A DNA stretch of 64,000 nucleotides, from NCBI GenBank assembly GCA_964390945.1, contig CAYMIV010000002.1:1784-65783 (forward strand). Direction: 5' to 3'. Source of the stretch: an uncultured Candidatus Saccharibacteria bacterium (lineage in GTDB: Bacteria; Patescibacteriota; Minisyncoccia; Phycocordibacterales; UBA918). Position 1 is the first letter of the stretch; each line of letters opens with the position of its first letter. Below the pieces are notes generated by a model that ran no database searches, was not told the origin of the DNA, and saw only the letters and a list, made by a program, of their open reading frames with translations. Positions 3,995 to 27,040 of the stretch are shown here, piece by piece. Both the position numbers and the translations under genes were made by a program.

Positions 3995-4453
3995 CTATTT
4001 CCGCCGAAACATGCTGGCAATTGTCTCCTCGATAACAAACACGAGCGGAATGAAGCCAGTGGCGGGAATAAGAAGGAATCGTGACAACCACTTCCAGGGC
4101 GCCGCGCCATAACTTTGAAACGGCGTTGCGAGGTACCCAAAAACGAAGGCGCAGCAAACGAACGTTCCCATTGCAACCCAGTACGTTTCCGGACGCAATA
4201 GATGCATTCGGTCCATGCGTTTTGCAAGAAGCACAACCGCCGCGCCAAACAGTATGATGCCGATCGCGCCAACACCGACAACGAGGAGCGCAATGTTGTC
4301 TGCGTCCCACCAGTCTATCGAACTGCGCTTAAATGTGAGGATTCCGGCGCCGTCACCAGCAAACGCCGCGGCATAGCCGACAGCGAGTGCAAGAATGATG
4401 AAAATAAATCCACGAGCAGGATGGACATCGAATTGTGTCATGTCTTCCTCCAT
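3995..4453 (-). CDS. hypothetical polytopic membrane protein
   Basis: 152 aa with about four hydrophobic helices; no recognisable domain. Confidence 0.45.
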   Translation of the reverse strand: MEEDMTQFDVHPARGFIFIILALAVGYAAAFAGDGAGILTFKRSSIDWWDADNIALLVVGVGAIGIILFGAAVVLLAKRMDRMHLLRPETYWVAMGTFVCCAFVFGYLATPFQSYGAAPWKWLSRFLLIPATGFIPLVFVIEETIASMFRRK

Positions 4454-4745
4454 GAATAGTTCAAGATTGGAGAACTTCTGATTCTAGTGTTACACGATGG
4501 GGTTTTAAGTCAATGTGCATGTGTTGCGTGACAGATTTTCCTTTAGAAAATCGAAGTGCTCTTGTGGCGAAAGGTGTACTGCTCCCGTAGGGAGAATCGA
4601 AACCTGACGGTCACTAAGATTTTCGCCGAATGGCGAATCTCTAAGTGCCGCGGGTCACGCCTCGCGTGTTCGTAAACTCACATCGCTCCGGCGGTTTCGA
4701 TTACCCCACACCGTGCGCAGGCACGGTGTTCCCACCCGCACACAA

Positions 4746-4770
4746 AAAGACCCTTTCGGGTCTTTTTGTC
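4746..4770. terminator. hairpin downstream of the minus-strand tRNA-Gly; also the centre of a longer inverted repeat
   Basis: aaaagaccctttcgggtcttttt; flanking sequences cccacccgcacac / gtgcgggcggggg extend the inverted repeat. Confidence 0.5.
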
Positions 4771-4773
4771 TTG

Positions 4774-4844
4774 TGCGGGCGGGGGTAATCGAAACCCCGA
4801 CTACTGCTTGGAAGGCAGTCGTTTTACCACTAAACCACGCCCGC
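4774..4844 (-). tRNA. tRNA-Gly(UCC)
   Basis: Manual cloverleaf: acceptor GCGGGCG/CGCCCGC, D-arm GTTT-AGTGGTA-AAAC, anticodon stem ACTGC/GCAGT with loop CTTCCAA (anticodon UCC), T-arm GGGGT-TTCGATT-ACCCC, discriminator A; no encoded CCA. Confidence 0.8.
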
Positions 4845-4967
4845 ATGTATTCTTTTGTAAATAATCGAAGTTCTTACAGAACCTGTACACCTTTTGGATA
4901 TTTTACTTCGTTTCCCTCGTAAAATTTCTCAAAAGGTCTTGCGGATTGGGTCCTGTCCCAATCCTCA

Positions 4968-5015
4968 CCCGACTACTGCTTCAGGGCAGTCGTTTTACCA
5001 CTAAACCACGCCCGC
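4968..5015 (-). pseudogene. truncated tRNA-like fragment (paralog of the tRNA-Gly 5' half)
   Basis: About 48 nt nearly identical to the tRNA-Gly acceptor, D-arm and anticodon stem, but with a 6-nt anticodon loop and no T-arm or 3' acceptor strand; followed by the hairpin ggattgggacaggacccaatcc. Confidence 0.5.
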
Positions 5016-5081
5016 GCGAGGTTCGGATGATTCTAACACAGGCGAATTAATGATTAAACCCCATGCTACAATTCTTGTGAC

Positions 5082-6254
5082 ATGATGTTTGTAGAATTAT
5101 TGAATGGCGCACTCGTGAGCGTGCTGGTTGCTTATCTTTCCTTCACAAATGCACTCGCGAATATGGTGATTTCGATTGTCCACGAAACGAGACCGGGGGT
5201 TACTGAAACAATCTCTATCAGTACTATTTCTAATTCTGTATCGCAACCATCGGCTTCTGCCGAACTTCGCGAGTTGAGTTCTCGTCTCGCGCACGCCATA
5301 GAAAACACTGTTCCTCGTGTTTTGCTTGAAAATACGGACTTTCAGCAAGCGGCTCTCGGTGCCGCAGATTTGACTGAAAATTTTTCACCACGTAGTGAAG
5401 TTCCTGTTCGAGAACGTATAGAATCTGCACTTGTAAATGTTTTTTGCCAGTATAAAACCGAACACTATATCCGCACGACAACGGGGACGGGGATTTTCAT
5501 AGACCCAAAGGGGGTTATTTTAACGAACGCGCATGTTGCACAATTTCTACTCCTCAAAGACAGTGATTCAAAAGTTATTGATGCCGGATGCATTATCCGT
5601 GTCGGAAATCCGGCGACGCCTACCTATAGAGCGGAACTTCTCTACATTTCACCGATGTGGATATACCAAAACGCCTCGCTCATTACGGAAGAAAGTCCGC
5701 GAGGCACCGGCGAGCGAGATTACGCGCTCCTTTATGTTTCCGATGCTGTCAATAAAAACTCAATTCCGGAATCATTCCCCTTCTTGTCGGTTGACACGGA
5801 ACTTCTCACTATTTATACGAAGGGTATCGGGGCAATCACCGCCGGATATCCTGCGGAAATCCTACAGCGTGAAGGGGCGCGAGCAAAACTCGTTCCCGTA
5901 GTTGCTTCTACGACCATTGAGGATTTATTCACGTTTGGTAGCAACTATGCGGACGTCATGACCATCAGCGAATCACCGGTTGGCGAACAGGGGGCGTCCG
6001 GGGGACCCATCGCGAGAGATGACGGCTCTGTGATTGGGCTCATTGTAACGAAAGGAGACCAGACGAGCGACGGGTCTCACAGCCTCCGCGCCATCACGCT
6101 CTCCTATATTGATCGCACCATAGAAGAGGAAACGGGTTATAGACTGGCACAAAACATGCGTGGCGACCTCGCCTATCGGAGCGGGGTGTTCAAAAAAGCA
6201 CTGGTTCCATTCCTCGCCAATTTGCTTGCGACTGAAATTTCACACTCGGAATGA
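5082..6254 (+). CDS. trypsin-like (S1/HtrA-type) serine protease, membrane-anchored
   Basis: N-terminal TM; catalytic motifs TNAHV (His), DYALLYV (Asp), GASGGPI (Ser). Confidence 0.7.
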   Translation: MMFVELLNGALVSVLVAYLSFTNALANMVISIVHETRPGVTETISISTISNSVSQPSASAELRELSSRLAHAIENTVPRVLLENTDFQQAALGAADLTENFSPRSEVPVRERIESALVNVFCQYKTEHYIRTTTGTGIFIDPKGVILTNAHVAQFLLLKDSDSKVIDAGCIIRVGNPATPTYRAELLYISPMWIYQNASLITEESPRGTGERDYALLYVSDAVNKNSIPESFPFLSVDTELLTIYTKGIGAITAGYPAEILQREGARAKLVPVVASTTIEDLFTFGSNYADVMTISESPVGEQGASGGPIARDDGSVIGLIVTKGDQTSDGSHSLRAITLSYIDRTIEEETGYRLAQNMRGDLAYRSGVFKKALVPFLANLLATEISHSE

Positions 6255-6260
6255 TTATAG

Positions 6261-6330
6261 AAAAACGCCTGGTTCCGCCCACGTAAGGACCCGTCAGCTT
6301 GCTGCGGGGATAGTGAGGCGGACGTTTTTA
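6261..6330. repeat. 70-bp direct repeat, copy 1 (intergenic)
   Basis: aaaaacgcctggttccgcccacgtaaggacccgtcagcttgctgcggggatagtgagg[c/a]ggacgttttta; second copy 161 bp downstream. Confidence 0.85.
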
Positions 6331-6421
6331 CTCGTTCGTCGCAGAATGCCTCGTGGGCGTGCCCCGAGGATGAATGCGACATAAAATTTTAGTATCGTCG
6401 GTGGACGATACTTCTGCGAGC

Positions 6422-6491
6422 AAAAACGCCTGGTTCCGCCCACGTAAGGACCCGTCAGCTTGCTGCGGGGATAGTGAGGAGGACGTTTTTA
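6422..6491. repeat. 70-bp direct repeat, copy 2 (supplies the last 12 codons and stop of the anti-sigma-like gene)
   Basis: Near-identical to 6261..6330 (1 mismatch); its reverse complement encodes ...KNVLLTIPAAS*. Confidence 0.85.
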
Positions 6492-7852
6492 TTTGTTGCA
6501 CCCTGTATTTCTTCTGTTGGCAGCATGGCGGAGTTCACCTCTTCTTCGGGCACTGCCTCTGTTGTCGTACCTGGTGTTTCGACATCTGCCGGGATGTCGT
6601 TCGGCAGTTGTGATTCAGAGAGTGGGGCGGTCTGCGTGAGTAGGTCAAGATCATGAGCAAGCGCCATTGCCTGCGCAATTGTTGCCTCTGCCCCATCGAT
6701 ATCATTGGCAGCGAAAGAGGTTGTTGCGCTGTTGATAAGCACTGAGAGTTCCGTCATGCCGAGCAAAACCTTTTCTGCAATTTCCACCCCCTCAAGAAGT
6801 GCGAGTCGCCCCGTGATAAGCGTACTTGTCGCAATAAGTGAGTCGAGGTTCATCTTTGCCGATGCGGCACGTTCTTCGATGGTAGGAATGATAGGAACGA
6901 GCGTTTCAAGTGCAACTGATTCACGAACATCGATATCAGTCATGAATACGATGAGTTTCTGAACAAGGCCGAGCGCACCCATAAGTTCTGACACAGCAGC
7001 GGATTCGTCGGTGGTGCGTGTATTTTCCGCTTCGAGAATAAGGCGGTCGATGTCTGCGAGGCGGCGAGTCATGTCGCCCTGCTCTTCTTGCGTAGCAATC
7101 TTTTTTACCACCTCGAGGAGTTCGTAGGCGCGCGTGGTCTCAAGTTCGATACGTGCCGAAAGACCATCATACGAAGGCGCAGTCGGGTCTTGGTTTTCAG
7201 CAACCCGTTCTCGGGCAGTGTTGACCACATCGATGATTTCGGCAACAGCCGCTTGAGATTCTTCTGTTGATCCGGTATCAAGTACCGCAGATTGTACTTC
7301 TAGCGCCGAACCGAGTGTGACCTGGGCAATTGCAGCCTCTTCCGCATTATTCGTCCGGAGCTCGGCGATACCATTCTGTGCGGCATCTGCGTGAATTTTA
7401 ACGGTTTCTGCAAGTTCGGCACTTACCTCTTTTGTGAGTTTTCCTTCTTCCGCAAGAAGTCGTGCCTCCGAAATTCGCCGTTCCATGAGTTTGGTTTCGA
7501 ACACAACTTTTTCATAGGGAGAATTTGCAAACTGGGATTGGATTTCTTCGTTCACACCAGTTTTTACGGCATAGAGAACGTCTCCCGGAACGGATTGTTC
7601 TGCGACAAAGGGAATGATGATGAAGACTATTGACGCGAGGACGCCGGCTGCAATGCGAACCGGGAGCGAATTGAATGGCAATATGAAAAAGTACGGTGAA
7701 TGAATCGATTCGGCGGGTATTGATTCCGCTTTTTTCGGAAGCGGATGATATTCCATATACGACAAAACGCGCTCACGAAGTTCACGCCGTTCAAGCGCCC
7801 GCAATCGGACTTTTTCTGCATATTTTTGTAAATCAGTTTCGAAAGATTTCAT
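6455..7852 (-). CDS. membrane-anchored anti-sigma-like protein (DUF5667-like helical ectodomain)
   Basis: Immediately downstream of the ECF sigma gene; cytoplasmic N-terminus, single TM (IAAGVLASIVFIIIPFV), long helical Ala/Glu-rich extracytoplasmic domain. Confidence 0.5.
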   Translation of the reverse strand: MKSFETDLQKYAEKVRLRALERRELRERVLSYMEYHPLPKKAESIPAESIHSPYFFILPFNSLPVRIAAGVLASIVFIIIPFVAEQSVPGDVLYAVKTGVNEEIQSQFANSPYEKVVFETKLMERRISEARLLAEEGKLTKEVSAELAETVKIHADAAQNGIAELRTNNAEEAAIAQVTLGSALEVQSAVLDTGSTEESQAAVAEIIDVVNTARERVAENQDPTAPSYDGLSARIELETTRAYELLEVVKKIATQEEQGDMTRRLADIDRLILEAENTRTTDESAAVSELMGALGLVQKLIVFMTDIDVRESVALETLVPIIPTIEERAASAKMNLDSLIATSTLITGRLALLEGVEIAEKVLLGMTELSVLINSATTSFAANDIDGAEATIAQAMALAHDLDLLTQTAPLSESQLPNDIPADVETPGTTTEAVPEEEVNSAMLPTEEIQGATNKNVLLTIPAAS

Positions 7853-9493: not shown

Positions 9494-9520
9494 ATATTTG
9501 GTGTTTGTCGGGGAGCCGGG
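9494..9520. repeat. partial duplicate of the tRNA-Pro 3' end plus downstream flank (direct repeat with 9648..9676)
   Basis: atatttggtgtttgtcggggagccggg versus atatttttggtgtttgtcggggagccggg at the real tRNA. Confidence 0.8.
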
Positions 9521-9647
9521 TGAGACAGTCCGCGCGGACTGTCGCAAGACCTTGAGCAGTTGCTGCGAAAGGTGTACAGCGACTGTAAGGCGGCGAACTT
9601 TGTTCGATTCCCTTTTCAAACATCAAAAACATTCAACGCGAGGCCGA
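9521..9647. repeat. 127-bp insert bracketed by the tRNA-Pro 3'-end direct repeats; shares the repeat module with 10726..10812 and 4564..4603
   Basis: Starts tgaga, then hairpin cagtccgcgcggactg, then cgcaagaccttgagca...gcgaaaggtgtac; the same blocks recur at the tRNA-Gly(GCC) locus. Confidence 0.5.
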
Positions 9648-9663
9648 ATATTTTTGGTGTTTG

Positions 9664-9734
9664 TCGGGGAGCCGGGAATCGAACCCGGACCTCATGGTCC
9701 CAAACCATGAACACTACCACTATGCTACACCCCG
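9664..9734 (-). tRNA. tRNA-Pro(UGG)
   Basis: Manual cloverleaf: acceptor CGGGGTG/CTCCCCG (one T-T mismatch at 6:67), anticodon stem CATGG/CCATG with loop TTTGGGA (anticodon UGG), T-arm CCGGG-TTCGATT-CCCGG. Confidence 0.72.
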
Positions 9735-9884
9735 AATTTTGCCAGAGCATATTAACACATAGCAGCATATTTCCATAAATATTATTCACAATAGTAAGAT
9801 TGCGTGGTTTGTGGTGACAAACTGTATAGAGAGAAGAACTATTCAAAAAATATATTGGGTTTGATTATGATGTTTCACATGAAA

Positions 9885-10283
9885 CTAATCAATAATAATA
9901 TTTTCAATAATTTTGACTCTTGCATACTTTTCACGTGAAACAATTTTTACAGCAATGACATCAATTTGAAATTTGCCATTATAATTGCTTGAAGTTAACC
10001 AGGTTTCAATAACCCTTGCAATTCGACACAGTTTATCATTTCGAACCTTGTCTTCAGGGCGCCACGTTTCATGTGAAACCGCATACTCAAGATCAGACAT
10101 CGTTTCATATGAAACAGATTTAACTTCAACAAAATGAACCACGTCGCCTAATAGCGAAATAATATCGATTTCACCCCATTTTTTGAAATAATTTCTTTCA
10201 ACTATTTTGTGCCTCCTTGAAACAAGCCATTTTGCAGCGATATCTTCACCAATTTTGCCGATAATTTTATTGTCGGTCATCAA
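9885..10283 (-). CDS. YraN/UPF0102-like endonuclease-fold protein (PD-(D/E)xK-like)
   Basis: Core GEDIAAKWLVSRRHKIVERNYFKKWGEIDIISL...VHFVEVKS resembles the UPF0102/YraN family; it carries an internal insertion with repeated VS[RHY]E[KT] motifs. Confidence 0.5.
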   Translation of the reverse strand: MMTDNKIIGKIGEDIAAKWLVSRRHKIVERNYFKKWGEIDIISLLGDVVHFVEVKSVSYETMSDLEYAVSHETWRPEDKVRNDKLCRIARVIETWLTSSNYNGKFQIDVIAVKIVSREKYARVKIIENIIID

Positions 10284-10707
10284 GATATTATATCATTCGA
10301 TTAAAATTACTGGCGTGGCGTTTCACGTGAAACGTTACTTTCCAAATATGACGTGTGCACAACTAATTTTTACCCATATTTTAAGCCGTATAGTTAAGGA
10401 CATTCAGTGTTTATGTCTATGTCCTTTATACACATATTAAGGTGTTTGTTCACAGTTCGATGGTGGTTTTGTGAATGTGCTATTTCGCCAAACTTTAGTT
10501 ATGGTTCAGGATATTGGACCAGGCGTACATTCCAGGAGAATTCTATTTAACTCCTTTTGAGGTTTAAATTCGCGTGAATTTTGTATTTGATGTGCATTTT
10601 GAATCTAAGGCTCACACAGCGATTTTGATGCTTTCGGCGTGGCGAAGGATGGGGCATCGCCCCGATTCACATAAGCGAAACGACCTGAAAACATGTTCAG
10701 GTCGTTT

Positions 10708-10812
10708 CGTTTTGTGCGGCCAGGGTGAGAAGCAATCAATATTGCTTCGCAAGACCTTGAGCATGAATATGCGAAAGGTGTACTGCTCCCGTAGGGAGAA
10801 TCGAAACTTACA
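10708..10812. repeat. partial tRNA-Gly(GCC) 3'-end copy plus the shared repeat module
   Basis: ttttgtgcggccaggg, then tgaga, hairpin agcaatcaatattgcttc, cgcaagaccttgagca, gcgaaaggtgtactgctcccgtagggagaatcgaaac (the last block is identical to 4564..4603). Confidence 0.55.
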
Positions 10813-10881
10813 GTTTCAGTGCAGGTTGTCGCTATTTTCTGCAAAATAGCTGTCAACCTTTTCGATTCTCCAGCCCAAAAG

Positions 10882-10917
10882 GAAAGTACCAGATGTAAAA
10901 ACTGGTACTTTCTTTTT
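10882..10917. terminator. terminator hairpin downstream of the minus-strand tRNA-Gly(GCC)
   Basis: gaaagtaccag-atgtaaaaa-ctggtactttc followed by ttttt. Confidence 0.65.
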
Positions 10918-10918
10918 G

Positions 10919-10989
10919 TGCGGCCAGGGAGAATCGAACTCCCGACTAATCCTTGGCAAGGACTCGTTATACCACTTAACCATGGCCGC
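10919..10989 (-). tRNA. tRNA-Gly(GCC)
   Basis: Acceptor GCGGCCA/TGGCCGC, anticodon stem AGTCC/GGATT with loop TTGCCAA (anticodon GCC), T-arm GGGAG-TTCGATT-CTCCC, discriminator A. Confidence 0.85.
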
Positions 10990-11345: not shown

Positions 11346-11617
11346 GGAAATCTCCTCGGTGTTCCACGTGCAACACTACTTGAAGGAGCGGGGAAGTGCA
11401 AGGTGCACATATCCAAATGTGGTCACAAATCACTAGGTATCTTTGTTCGCTTCACTCCAAACATACTAAGTGTTCTCGACCCCACCTCGACATTTTTCTT
11501 TCTTTATTGAAAGAAAAATAAGCCTGCGTTTGAACACGCGTACGCAAGTGAAGCATTTCACTTGCTAGACTCAAAAACCATGCTTTCTTAAAAGAAAGGT
11601 TTTTGAGTCTACGCGTG

Positions 11618-11689
11618 TGCACCCACCAGGACTCGAACCTGGCACGACGGTTCCGAAGACCGTAATGATATCCACTTCACCATGGGTGC
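11618..11689 (-). tRNA. tRNA-Arg(UCG)
   Basis: Acceptor GCACCCA/TGGGTGC, anticodon stem ACGGT/ACCGT with loop CTTCGGA (anticodon UCG), T-arm CCAGG-TTCGAGT-CCTGG. It overlaps the spurious 5' extension of the cca ORF. Confidence 0.8.
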
Positions 11690-25802: not shown

Positions 25803-27040
25803 TGCAATGTTCAATGTCATTCAAGTGGTGCTCGGCTATGCTCATAATCGCATCAGTACTCTTTCCGTTTTCAGATGTTCGCGCCGCACAATCAACCGAC
25901 ACGACTATGATTGAGCGCCTCTCTGCAATCAGTTCGTATCTTTCACGAACGTACGGCGAGCGTAAAGACCTTGCCCCAAGTGAGCTCATTGCTTCTATTC
26001 GCGCAGGAATAGGGTGGCTTAAAAACGCACAAGAAGAGTCGGGTCGCTTCAAGTATGAATACCTCCCATTTGAGGGAACGTATCGCGCCGACGATAATAT
26101 CGTGCGTCAGGCGGGGGCACTGTATGCGCTCGGGGAGGTGGCGCGCCGAATCGACAACGACGAGTTGGGGGTGCGCAAAACGATGGAGCGTTCGATTCAC
26201 TATTTTGAATCACTCGCGCGCCAGAGCGACGGGGGCGGATCTTGTATCGCCCCAACAAAAAAGAGCGTTCGCTGTCAGCTCGGCGCAACAGCGCTCGCAC
26301 TCATCGGGACAATTTCATTTGTTGAATCCTTTCCCGATTCGAACGATGAGTACCAGCCGCTCATAGAATCGTTTGTTGCGCATCTCCTTGCATCGCAAAA
26401 AGCGAACGGCGGTTTTCGAAATTTATACATGGGAGGAAACACAAAAATCTCTGACGAAGAGTCGGCTTTTTCGAACGGGGAAGCGCTTCTCGCGCTTGTG
26501 CGCTATTACCGGCACGAAAATGACGACGCTGTGCGAGTAGCGATTGATCGAGCGTTCGCCCACTTGAGCGCCGAGCCCCTCGACAGCAATCTCTATCTCT
26601 GGATGATGGCGTCGCTCAAAGATATGCATGCACTGTGGCCGAAAAGTGCATATACGGATTACGCGAGTTCATTTACTTCGTGGCGCATGCAGAAAGCGAA
26701 AAATCTCACCGACCGCACCCGCAATTACTGCGCCTACGCGGAAGGTCTTGCGAGTGCTACGAGTGTTGTGAGAAAGGAAAACGATACGTATGCACCGCTC
26801 ATCGCTGAACTCAATCTGCGGAACGCACGTAATTATTCGCTCCAAATAACAGAGAAAGACCGTTATCGTATTCTCACGGAAGGCGGTTTGCCAAAACTCA
26901 AAACACTCGCTGATGCAAAACGCGCACTCGGGGGATTTCTTACGGGAGATGGGGAGCCCTCACAGCGTATCGACTTCACCCAACACTGCATCGGGGCGTA
27001 CGTACAGACGCTGGTCGATATTCTGGGAGAAAAACTATAA
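25802..27040 (+). CDS. secreted protein with an alpha/alpha-toroid (prenyltransferase/terpene-cyclase-like repeat) fold
   Basis: Signal peptide; repeated Q..NGGF / aromatic-rich helical repeats; overlaps the upstream gene by 1 nt. Confidence 0.35.
   Translation: MQCSMSFKWCSAMLIIASVLFPFSDVRAAQSTDTTMIERLSAISSYLSRTYGERKDLAPSELIASIRAGIGWLKNAQEESGRFKYEYLPFEGTYRADDNIVRQAGALYALGEVARRIDNDELGVRKTMERSIHYFESLARQSDGGGSCIAPTKKSVRCQLGATALALIGTISFVESFPDSNDEYQPLIESFVAHLLASQKANGGFRNLYMGGNTKISDEESAFSNGEALLALVRYYRHENDDAVRVAIDRAFAHLSAEPLDSNLYLWMMASLKDMHALWPKSAYTDYASSFTSWRMQKAKNLTDRTRNYCAYAEGLASATSVVRKENDTYAPLIAELNLRNARNYSLQITEKDRYRILTEGGLPKLKTLADAKRALGGFLTGDGEPSQRIDFTQHCIGAYVQTLVDILGEKL

What the first reader, a model, noticed from the sequence alone, without database searches (positions are those of the whole stretch)
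4540..5040. tRNA-Gly(UCC) region with a truncated paralogous tRNA fragment, a long inverted repeat and a copy of the shared tRNA-linked module
A 48-nt copy of the tRNA-Gly 5' half (4968-5015) has an altered 6-nt anticodon loop and no T-arm, and lies ~120 bp from the intact gene (4774-4844). The intact tRNA's 3' acceptor strand forms part of an extended inverted repeat around the 4746-4770 hairpin (cccacccgcacacaaaaagaccc / gggtctttttgtcttgtgcgggcggggg). Upstream at 4564-4603 is the block gcgaaaggtgtactgctcccgtagggagaatcgaaac, which is identical to the tRNA-Gly(GCC) locus. Together these indicate repeated recombination at tRNA genes.
Basis: seen in the sequence. Interest (0 to 1): 0.5.

Follow-up and report, generated by a model that had tools for sequence, protein, structure and literature searches.

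The report
Structured insertion element splitting tRNA copies
The "truncated tRNA" is the front part of a spare tRNA-Gly copy split by a roughly 100-base, three-hairpin insertion element; the family has at least 120 copies in ultra-small (Patescibacteria) genomes, matches no catalogued RNA family, and its function and means of spreading are unknown.

Summary
All three observations are real. The 48-nt tRNA-Gly(UCC) 5' copy, the extended palindrome at the tRNA 3' end, and the 37-nt block shared with the tRNA-Gly(GCC) locus are all at the stated places.

The unifying object is not generic recombination. It is a conserved structured element, which I call M. Its form is RGG|UGAG-hairpin Pa-CGCAAGACC-hairpin Pb with tandem G-A pairs-AAAGGUGUAC-hairpin Pc with a GUA triloop.

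The window holds four copies: 4870-4967(-), 9521-9592(+), 10726-10798(+) and a decayed one at 4529-4594(+). An exact-pattern scan found more than 119 loci, almost all in Patescibacteria MAGs. Covariation is strong: 97.6% of cells pair and 17 of 20 pairs show compensatory changes. No Rfam family matches.

The tRNA fragment is the 5' part of a tRNA-Gly copy cut at the T-stem/T-loop boundary by one M copy; 8 nt of T-loop follow the insert. The M copy at 10726-10798 is a clean insertion: removing it and one GGG restores the tRNA 3' end exactly. Relatives show empty, filled and decayed states.

Best reading: a non-autonomous mobile structured element that survives in tRNA-derived decoy copies. How it moves is unknown.

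The parts
5030..5035 (-). -10-like TAGAAT of the tRNA-Gly(UCC) transcription unit, 14 nt upstream of the tRNA fragment
   Evidence: Read. The same ..TAGAATCA.. box precedes the tRNA or its leader in L120, L121, L124, L125 and L127. Promoter function is inferred.
4968..5015 (-). X': copy of tRNA-Gly(UCC) nt 1-48 (acceptor 5' strand, D arm, anticodon arm with the 6-nt loop CCUGAA, variable loop, T-stem GGG)
   Evidence: (D2, D8). The orthologous X' in L120 keeps an intact loop.
4870..4967 (-). M3: full copy of the structured element (UGAG-Pa-CGCAAGACC-Pb-AAAGGUGUAC-Pc)
   Evidence: Model R1, 55.9 bits, E = 8e-13. The fold matches the consensus, z = -5.1. The ortholog in L120 has a compensatory flip of the Pb base helix.
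4845..4869 (-). Tail. UUCGAUUA (4862-4869) is the T-loop plus the first T-stem base of tRNA-Gly(UCC), the remnant of the interrupted copy. A 17-nt A/U-rich spacer then runs up to the tRNA 5' end.
   Evidence: L120 carries UUCGAUUCUC at the same place. The tails of M1 and M2 carry the T-loop of their own tRNAs.
4773..4844 (-). Intact tRNA-Gly(UCC)
   Evidence: ARAGORN and Rfam, 72.4 bits.
4731..4785 (.). Palindromic terminator-like hairpin (4744-4767), extended on both sides so that the tRNA acceptor 3' strand pairs with an antisense copy
   Evidence: The same layout is present in L121, L125, L127 and L128. Terminator function is inferred; the simple consensus scan did not call it.
4693..4729 (-). 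Antisense copy of the T-arm (4693-4707) plus an inserted hairpin (4708-4729). This is the left arm of the closing helix of the downstream companion hairpin.
   Evidence: I12, 15/15 complementary. Fold of 4590-4707, z = -5.2.
4609..4692 (-). Core-less shell E0 (GCCGGAGCG-H1-CGAGGCG|UGACC..H2..GUGACC). It is homologous to the shell in L016, which does contain an M core, and to the shell behind tRNA-Pro in L128.
4590..4608 (-). R'-like piece GUCAGGUUUCGAUUCUCCC: a T-loop plus a GCC-type T-stem 3' strand. It forms the right arm of the closing helix and overlaps the Pc hairpin of M4 on the other strand.
   Evidence: (I14).
4529..4594 (+). M4: decayed copy. The 5' half is degenerate; the 3' half is intact and identical to M2 over 37 nt (4567-4603 = 10771-10807).
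   Evidence: R1, 27.1 bits, E = 2.4e-05; D6.
9521..9592 (+). M1: full copy, antisense to tRNA-Pro, inserted after CCGGG of a decoy copy of the tRNA-Pro 3' end
   Evidence: R1, 72.1 bits. The 27-nt repeat 9494-9520 = 9650-9676 (D11). The uninterrupted decoy in L128. A degenerate ortholog in L121.
10726..10798 (+). M2: full copy, antisense to tRNA-Gly(GCC), inserted into a decoy copy of the tRNA 3' end
   Evidence: R1, 85.8 bits. Deleting the block together with one GGG leaves UUCGAUUCUCCCUGGCCGCAC, exactly the tRNA 3' end. The decoys in L128 and L130 are uninterrupted.
10804..10871 (-). Companion hairpin of tRNA-Gly(GCC): the antisense T-arm GGAGAAUCGAA (10861-10871) plus an 'M-lite' unit (Pb-like helix, GCAC, Pc-like hairpin AAACUGUAAGUUU)
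   Evidence: Orthologous units in L128, L129 and L130 and at the UCC locus of L121 and L125.

Best explanation
The region holds four copies of a small (about 75-110 nt), non-coding, three-hairpin insertion element (M). The element is spread through Patescibacteria genomes.

M lands immediately 3' of a purine-rich RGG. In this lineage it repeatedly lands at the junction between the G-run of a T-stem and the T-loop, on either strand.

A hit in the only functional tRNA gene would probably be lethal. So the copies we see sit in spare tRNA-derived sequences: a second tRNA-Gly(UCC) copy at the promoter (giving X'-M3-UUCGAUUA-tRNA), and the duplicated 3'-end decoys that follow each tRNA behind its palindromic terminator (M1, M2, M4).

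In the UCC unit, transcription from the conserved TAGAAT box would read through X' and M3 into the intact tRNA. RNase P would then release the tRNA, leaving M in the 5' leader.

Shown here: the element's structure and covariation; its multiplicity; its exact boundaries; filled, empty and decayed orthologous sites; and near-identical copies behind different tRNAs in one genome.

Inferred: that M is mobile now or was recently; that its hairpins are conserved because a trans-acting enzyme, or M's own RNA or single-stranded DNA fold, needs them for spread; and the read-through and RNase P processing.

Unknown: the enzyme and the intermediate (single-stranded DNA of the IS200/REP type, or RNA).
For: Family and structure:
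- Exact pattern found in more than 119 genome loci, none in viral contigs.
- 120 covariance-model hits in 768 kb of the held sequence.
- 97.6% of cells paired, 17/20 pairs with double changes, 0/500 shuffles as good, slid controls 37-54%. RNAalifold gives the same three hairpins.
- Single-sequence folds have z = -3 to -5.

Discrete insertion:
- M2 is removable to restore the tRNA 3' end exactly. The orthologous decoys in L128 and L130 are uninterrupted, as is the tRNA-Pro decoy in L128.
- At the UCC promoter, L125 has the tRNA directly after TAGAAT, L120 has X'-M-tRNA like the window, and L121 has only an M 3' remnant.
- The M core is present in the L016 shell and absent from the homologous window shell.

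Spread:
- Two long-form copies on one contig (L051, L055), identical at most aligned positions over about 210 nt, lie behind tRNA-Leu and tRNA-Tyr. Each is preceded by an antisense copy of its own tRNA's 3' end.
- Up to 4 copies occur in 8 kb (L075), and decayed copies exist (M4, L121).

Target:
- Position -1 is G in 118/119 copies, -2 is G in 89/119, and -3 is a purine in 108/119.
- Junctions lie at the T-stem GGG in M1, M2, M3 and L114. The tails carry each tRNA's own T-loop.
- 39/124 copies lie within 400 nt of a tRNA.

Not a regulon element:
- 145 flanking ORFs fall in 158 Pfam families, none shared by more than 3.
Against: - No transposase, integrase or reverse transcriptase is linked to any copy, so no mobilising activity is identified.
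- There are no shared terminal inverted repeats and no fixed-length target duplication.
- Core nucleotides are conserved across very divergent lineages, and helices show compensatory change. This is more typical of a functional RNA than of a decaying MITE.
- The X'-M-tRNA arrangement is old (shared with L120 at 63% identity in the neighbouring protein), yet X' stays almost identical to the tRNA in each genome. That needs gene conversion or selection.
- Orientation is biased: 36 of 39 tRNA-proximal copies are co-oriented with the tRNA, and upstream genes are co-oriented 30:15. This suggests the transcript matters.
- About a quarter of copies (29 of 113 scored) are flanked by long locus-specific inverted repeats, and a dozen or so by 14-63-nt direct repeats that abut the 5' end. 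My model explains these only partly.
- The G-U versus A-C asymmetry is weak (40 versus 33 overall).
- All empty and filled sites compared are between species, not strains.
Confidence: 0.5

Rival explanations
1. M is primarily a functional structured RNA domain of tRNA and mRNA leaders and trailers. It could be a processing, stability or termination signal recognised by a conserved Patescibacteria protein. On this view the tRNA fragments are by-products of local duplication, and multiplicity reflects repeated recruitment rather than selfish spread.
For: - Strong covariation and invariant junction nucleotides.
- A compensatory flip of the Pb helix in the orthologous L120 copy.
- 36/39 tRNA-proximal copies are co-oriented with the tRNA, and upstream ORFs are co-oriented 30:15.
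- M3 sits between a conserved promoter box and the tRNA, so it must be transcribed.
- The M-lite and E0 companion hairpins are conserved behind the same tRNAs in several relatives.
Against: - M1 and M2 are intact yet antisense to their tRNAs, with no promoter-like site upstream.
- Orthologous sites are empty in relatives with no visible replacement.
- Neighbouring genes are unrelated.
- Decayed copies are tolerated (M4, L121).
- Insertion into gene fragments with exact boundaries is not how cis-regulatory RNAs arise.
Confidence: 0.25
2. There is no dedicated element. The pattern is the debris of repeated duplication, inversion and gene conversion at tRNA genes, nucleated by palindromic terminators and the palindromic T-arm, or by integrase att sites.
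For: - The layout R - terminator - antisense R - R' resembles a direct-inverted-direct triplication.
- L121 has a 36-nt tRNA-Pro 5' duplicate with no M next to it.
- A GCC-type block lies in the UCC locus.
- tRNA-Pro is inverted relative to its neighbours in L121 and L129 compared with the window and L128.
Against: - It cannot explain a 40-nt conserved core with covarying hairpins in more than 120 loci of many genera, two thirds of them not within 400 nt of a tRNA.
- It cannot explain the clean M2 insertion.
- No integrase is in the window's first 13 kb or among 145 neighbouring ORFs.
Confidence: 0.1
3. M is, or descends from, an intron-like RNA. It could be a degenerate group I intron or an unknown small self-splicing or self-cleaving ribozyme that entered tRNAs by reverse splicing, with the interrupted copies being dead intron-bearing genes.
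For: - Group I introns are common in Patescibacteria tRNAs, and some are too divergent for RF00028 (PMC13011429).
- M lies inside tRNA copies between a 5' and a 3' exon-like part (L001, L056, L073, L115, window).
- It has a sharp, invariant 5' boundary G|UGAG.
Against: - No hit to RF00028 or to any ribozyme family at E <= 5-10 over nine copies.
- 75-110 nt, three serial hairpins and no P3/P7 pseudoknot is far below group I size.
- Insertion sites are in the D-loop, anticodon stem, variable region and T-stem, not the anticodon loop.
- The 5' exon ends in G, not U.
- The interrupted copies lack one exon half, so they cannot give a tRNA.
- Many copies lie in intergenic DNA.
Confidence: 0.08

Closest known systems
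REP/REPIN and IS200/IS605-derived PATE elements (hairpin repeats moved as single-stranded DNA by Y1 HUH transposases or RAYTs); comparison from my own knowledge
   Same: Short, non-coding, multi-copy and hairpin-rich. Intergenic, often at gene 3' ends. Insertion directly 3' of a short target with little or no target duplication. No terminal inverted repeats needed. Structure conserved because it is the enzyme's substrate.
   Different: No TnpA or RAYT found nearby. The core sequence is conserved across many candidate phyla-level groups, whereas REPs are species-specific. Three different hairpins with conserved single-stranded joiners. tRNA T-arm preference. Long locus-specific flanking repeats.
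Bacterial MITEs and structured repeats (Correia, BOX, RUP, ERIC); comparison from my own knowledge
   Same: Size, copy number, co-transcription with neighbouring genes, and presence/absence between relatives.
   Different: No common terminal inverted repeats and no fixed target-site duplication. Much wider phylogenetic conservation, with covariation.
Integrative elements that target tRNA genes and duplicate the tRNA 3' part at attL/attR; comparison from my own knowledge
   Same: Duplicated tRNA 3' ends (with some flank) bracket inserted DNA while an intact tRNA is kept. The T-loop region is a junction.
   Different: The insert is only 75-200 nt and encodes nothing. There is no integrase. 5' parts are also duplicated. 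The same element lies at many different tRNAs and at non-tRNA sites. M2 is inserted inside an already duplicated 3' end.
[quoted passage not shown] 2026, PMC13011429)
   Same: Same phylum, tRNA genes interrupted by structured RNA, and some members invisible to standard models.
   Different: Those introns are in the anticodon loop (33/34 to 36/37), follow a U, end in G, have the length of canonical group I introns, and splice in vitro to give functional tRNAs. M has none of these features and no model match.
Archaeal tRNA introns at non-canonical positions and split tRNA genes; comparison from my own knowledge
   Same: Interruptions at the D-loop, anticodon stem, variable region and T-arm. tRNA halves are joined to structured or complementary sequence.
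   Different: No bulge-helix-bulge motif was looked for or seen. An intact tRNA gene is always adjacent. The interrupted copies are incomplete. The organisms are bacteria.

Membership tests
tRNA (RF00005), for the fragment 4968-5015 | Complete cloverleaf scoring at or above the gathering score of 29 bits | tested here: not met
   ARAGORN finds no gene there. cmscan gives 24.0 bits only by using part of the M hairpin Pa as a T-arm.
tRNA with intron | 5' and 3' exon halves that join to a complete tRNA once the insert is removed | tested here: not met
   After M3 only UUCGAUUA remains. The T-stem 3' strand and acceptor 3' strand are absent, and the anticodon loop has 6 nt.
Group I intron (RF00028) | Match to the covariance model | tested here: not met
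   No hit at E <= 10 in window 4300-5300 and none at E <= 5 over 8 loci containing M.
Group I intron (RF00028) | [quoted passage not shown] | tested here: not met
   Position -1 is G in 118/119 copies. Junctions lie in the T-stem, D-loop, anticodon stem and variable region.
Known small self-cleaving ribozymes in Rfam (hammerhead, HDV-like, twister, twister-sister, pistol, hatchet) | Match to a family model | tested here: not met
   No such hit at E <= 5-10 or at gathering score in 15 loci and the window.
Self-cleaving or self-splicing ribozyme (any) | Catalytic activity | not testable with these tools
   Needs in vitro transcription assays.
MITE | Terminal inverted repeats shared by all copies | tested here: not met
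   The alignment of 120 copies shows no shared terminal repeats. The flanking inverted repeats are locus-specific.
MITE | Fixed-length target-site duplication | tested here: not met
   M2 has a 3-nt GGG ambiguity. M1 has a 3-nt loss. Other loci have 14-63-nt direct repeats or none.
IS200/IS605-type PATE or REPIN | Insertion 3' of a short conserved target without duplication, with subterminal hairpins | tested here: inconclusive
   An RGG precedes every copy, and hairpins lie within 4 nt of both ends. But the target is only 1-3 nt of information, and strand bias relative to replication could not be assessed.
IS200/IS605-type PATE or REPIN | A cognate Y1 transposase or RAYT in the same genome | not tested
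   Only 64 kb of this genome is available. None is among the 10 window ORFs or the 145 neighbouring ORFs scanned.
tRNA-targeting integrative element (att sites) | A tyrosine or serine recombinase gene within the bracketed DNA or nearby | tested here: not met
   The bracketed DNA is 123-204 nt. Nearby genes are ClpP, RNase Y, a protease, a DUF5667 protein, a sigma factor, CorA, YraN and the CCA enzyme.
tRNA-targeting integrative element (att sites) | Direct repeat of the tRNA 3' part at both ends of the insert | tested here: met
   9494-9520 = 9650-9676, and 10700-10728 resembles 10904-10932. L125 has a perfect repeat of at least 52 nt. The repeat predates M2, however.

The most novel reading that the evidence does not exclude
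M, together with its relatives (the M-lite unit and the E0 shell), is a previously unrecognised class of RNA-based mobile or catalytic element. It would recognise the T-arm of tRNA genes or transcripts, for example by its own fold or by pairing. Alternatively, the conserved 'companion hairpins' may be functional regulators of tRNA maturation in organisms with minimal RNA-processing machinery. These hairpins have the form: antisense T-arm, structured insert, second tRNA 3' end, second terminator. They follow tRNA-Gly(UCC), tRNA-Gly(GCC) and tRNA-Pro in several related genomes.
Probability: 0.15. Interest if true: 0.85.

Novelty: new variant of a known kind. Interest (0 to 1): 0.6.

Why it matters
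Patescibacteria have tiny genomes with little room for selfish DNA. Even so, this structured element appears in many copies across Kaiser-, Nomura-, Taylor-, Zambryski-, Yonath- and Lloydbacteria, Minisyncoccia and other MAGs, and it matches no Rfam family.

It explains a recurring annotation puzzle: tRNA halves and pseudo-tRNAs next to real tRNA genes. It also gives precise insertion boundaries for finding the mobilising activity.

If the hairpins are an enzyme substrate, the element points to an unrecognised transposition system. If they act as RNA, it would be a new conserved RNA of the phylum tied to tRNA transcription units.

Tried and rejected
Database and literature searches that found nothing:
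- Rfam at gathering score on the window and 15 loci, and at E <= 5-10 on the region and 8 loci. Only tRNAs and chance hits came back.
- Viral contigs: no copy.
- Literature by sequence strings and by topic: nothing on this element. The only relevant paper is the group I intron study.

Structural ideas considered and dropped:
- Hammerhead reading of CUUGAG..CGAAAGG. The tandem G-A pairs sit in a continuous helix, not a three-way junction.
- HDV-like fold. There is no P1 partner after Pa.
- K-turn at UGAG/CGCA. It is a single A-G mismatch.
- Pc as an anticodon-loop or Shine-Dalgarno mimic. The 'loop' bases covary as pairs, and the Pc sequence varies.
- A closing helix formed by the 8 nt on either side of M. 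I inspected a few copies (L092, L001, L008, L026) by eye and saw no consistent complementarity. This was not counted on an alignment.
- A tRNA-like fold of X' plus Pa. It is sub-threshold and depends on tRNAs that start with GCG.

Mechanistic ideas considered and dropped:
- Retroviral-type primer-binding site for the antisense tRNA 3' copies. They include genomic flank and no CCA complement, so they were copied from DNA.
- Long direct repeats as target-site duplications made by M. M2 sits inside an older duplication, and L121 has a tRNA-Pro 5' duplicate without M.

Other checks:
- The motif matches at 26742 and 19073 lie inside coding sequence and are chance.
- The promoter and terminator consensus scans were uninformative.
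Full report
**What the window is.** The first 13 kb encode ClpP, RNase Y, a trypsin-like protease, a DUF5667 protein, an ECF sigma factor, CorA, YraN (UPF0102) and a CCA-adding enzyme. Four tRNA genes lie on the minus strand: Gly-UCC 4773-4844, Pro-UGG 9663-9734, Gly-GCC 10918-10989 and Arg-UCG 11617-11689. The closest proteins and non-coding homologs come from Kaiserbacteria-like Patescibacteria MAGs.

Window 4968-5015 copies tRNA-Gly(UCC) nt 1-48. It is 41/41 identical outside the anticodon loop, and the loop reads CCUGAA instead of CUUCCAA. The hairpin at 4744-4767 is extended by arms that include the acceptor 3' strand. The stretch 4693-4707 is a perfect complement of the T-arm. Finally, 4567-4603 equals 10771-10807.

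**The shared module is a conserved element.** I read the flanks of all three tRNA loci in one orientation. This showed a common unit, which I call M:
- It starts directly after a G-run with UGAG.
- Hairpin Pa follows, then CGCAAGACC.
- Hairpin Pb follows, whose base ACCUU/AAGGU is extended by tandem G-A pairs, then GUAC-N-G.
- It ends with hairpin Pc, a 5-bp stem with a GUA triloop.

These came from Kaiser-, Nomura-, Taylor-, Zambryski-, Yonath- and Lloydbacteria, Minisyncoccia, Paceibacterota and MAGs titled Saccharibacteria. I did not verify those titles. No viral contig matched.

RNAalifold on 43 copies gives the three hairpins. On 120 model-aligned copies, 97.6% of cells pair and 17 of 20 pairs show double changes (376 cells). 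No shuffle out of 500 does as well, and slid controls reach only 37-54%. That alignment is fitted to the model, which inflates pairing somewhat.

Single-sequence folds reproduce the structure, with z = -3.1 to -5.1. No Rfam family matches at permissive thresholds.

**Copies in the window.** Model R1 finds four:

| Copy | Coordinates | Strand | Score |
|---|---|---|---|
| M2 | 10726-10798 | + | 85.8 bits |
| M1 | 9521-9592 | + | 72.1 bits |
| M3 | 4870-4967 | - | 55.9 bits |
| M4 | 4529-4594 | + | 27.1 bits |

M4 has a decayed 5' half.

**What the tRNA fragment is.** Reading the minus strand gives this order:
1. a TAGAAT box at 5035-5030;
2. 14 nt of spacer;
3. X' (tRNA nt 1-48, ending in the T-stem GGG);
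4. M3;
5. UUCGAUUA, which is the T-loop and first T-stem base of this very tRNA;
6. a 17-nt A/U-rich spacer;
7. the intact tRNA.

So X' is the front of a tRNA-Gly copy cut by M3 at the T-stem/T-loop boundary. The tails of M1 and M2 likewise carry the T-loop and T-stem 3' strand of their own tRNAs: UUCGAUUCCC for Pro and UUCGAUUCUCC for Gly-GCC.

**Relatives show which pieces are ancestral.** I fetched orthologous loci through homologs of the neighbouring protease and of YraN.

*Upstream of tRNA-Gly(UCC):*
- L125 (58% protein identity) has TAGAAT, 20 nt, then the tRNA. This site is empty.
- L127 has no M, and none was detected in L126.
- L120 (63%) has X'-M-UUCGAUUCUC-tRNA like the window. Its X' is identical to the first 37 nt of the downstream tRNA, all that is visible before the contig ends, including an intact anticodon loop. 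Its M has a compensatory flip of the Pb base (AGGUUGU/ACAACCU).
- L121 (60%) keeps only an M 3' remnant and no X'.

*Downstream of the tRNAs:* the unit (palindromic terminator, antisense acceptor/T-arm, structured insert, second tRNA 3' end R', second terminator) recurs widely.
- At Gly-UCC it occurs in L121, L125 and the window.
- At Gly-GCC it occurs in L128, L129, L130 and the window.
- At Pro it occurs in L121, L128 and the window.
- The insert is either an 'M-lite' (Pb-like helix, GNAC, Pc-like hairpin) or a 'shell' E0.

**M is a discrete insertion.** In the window's GCC unit, R' reads UUUCGAUUCUCCC, then the antisense M2 block, then CCCUGGCCGCAC. Deleting the block with one CCC leaves UUCGAUUCUCCCUGGCCGCAC, exactly the tRNA 3' end. 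The same decoy is uninterrupted in L128 and L130.

M1 sits at the equivalent point of the tRNA-Pro decoy (CCGGG|...|CGAAC, with AAU lost), which is uninterrupted in L128. The window's E0 shell lacks the M core that the homologous L016 shell contains.

On one contig, L051 and L055 carry long-form copies that are identical at most aligned positions over about 210 nt. They lie behind tRNA-Leu and tRNA-Tyr, and each is preceded by an antisense copy of its own tRNA's 3' end.

Across 119 copies, position -1 is G in 118, -2 is G in 89 and -3 is a purine in 108.

**Context across the family.** Of 124 copies, 39 lie within 400 nt of a tRNA, and 36 of those are co-oriented with it. GTTCGA is enriched about tenfold on both sides. 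The other copies lie in intergenic DNA next to unrelated housekeeping genes: 145 ORFs fall in 158 Pfam families, none shared by more than 3, with no transposase, integrase or reverse transcriptase standing out.

Many tRNA loci repeat one of two patterns:
- [degenerate tRNA 5' piece ending at |UGAG]-M-[intact tRNA], as in L101, L114, L110, L086, L067 and L010;
- [intact tRNA]-[5' remnant]-M-[3' copy], as in L001 and L056 (both tRNA-Phe, same site), L073 and L115.

A protein gene shows the same layout. In L098, 16 codons of a helicase, M, then the full gene follow one another. Twenty-nine of 113 copies are bracketed by locus-specific inverted repeats of 12-46 nt.

**Interpretation.** The best-supported reading is a non-autonomous, structurally constrained insertion element. 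It lands after RGG, in this lineage typically at the G-run/T-loop junction of T-arm sequences on either strand. It is seen only where the hit sequence is dispensable: spare tRNA copies and 3'-end decoys.

The decoys themselves appear to come from older duplications and inversions around the palindromic terminators.

**What remains unexplained:**
- the mobilising activity;
- why the core is so conserved;
- why X' tracks the tRNA sequence within each genome, whether by gene conversion or by function;
- why X' differs from the tRNA only in the anticodon loop in the window;
- the origin of the long flanking inverted repeats.

A functional-RNA reading, in which M is a leader or trailer domain, cannot be excluded and may coexist with mobility.

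Noticed in passing
window 6261-6336 and 6422-6497: Two 76-nt direct copies (96% identical, 161 nt apart) of a long hairpin-like sequence (AAAAACGCC...GGCGGACGUUUUU). They lie between the convergent protease and DUF5667 genes. No other copy was found in the window or in the loci searched, apart from a partial 14-nt match at the end of L123, which appears to be a short contig of the same organism.
   Followed up: partly
window 9873-10335: Five copies of the palindrome GUUUCAYRUGAAAC (starting at 9873, 9929, 10067, 10103 and 10321) within and next to the YraN/UPF0102 gene. Similar palindromes precede the YraN gene in L128 and L130. They may be a protein-binding site array.
   Followed up: partly
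L121 6480-6556 (JBKJIT010000003.1): A perfect 36-nt copy of the tRNA-Pro 5' end sits 42 nt upstream of the intact tRNA-Pro, with no M between them. It is followed by the reverse complement of the tRNA's downstream flank. So tRNA 5' duplications also arise without the element.
   Followed up: partly
L121/L130, L129 versus window and L128: tRNA-Pro is inverted relative to the flanking sigma and CorA/YraN genes in some relatives. This fits inversion across the inverted tRNA 3'-end copies.
   Followed up: no
L012 3950-4170; L003, L079, L026, L029 and others: M copies are enclosed by long, locus-specific inverted repeats (up to 31 bp perfect). These are not tRNA-derived, and I could not explain their origin.
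   Followed up: partly
L098 6842-7000 (minus strand): A helicase gene's promoter, start codon and 16 codons (MKFEEEYKKLNPKQGR) are followed by M and then by the complete gene (MTTFEAEYKKLNKQQ...). Most of the nucleotide differences between the two copies are synonymous.
   Followed up: partly
Genome contigs record titles: Many hit MAGs are titled 'uncultured Candidatus Saccharibacteria'. Yet one of that naming series (CAZQIF01) is a close relative of this Kaiserbacteria-like window. The titles may therefore be generic, and the true taxonomic breadth of the element needs checking.
   Followed up: no
window 11566-11611: A 21-bp near-perfect palindrome lies directly downstream of tRNA-Arg(UCG). 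It has no antisense tRNA copy and no M, so this tRNA lacks the companion unit seen at the other three.
   Followed up: no
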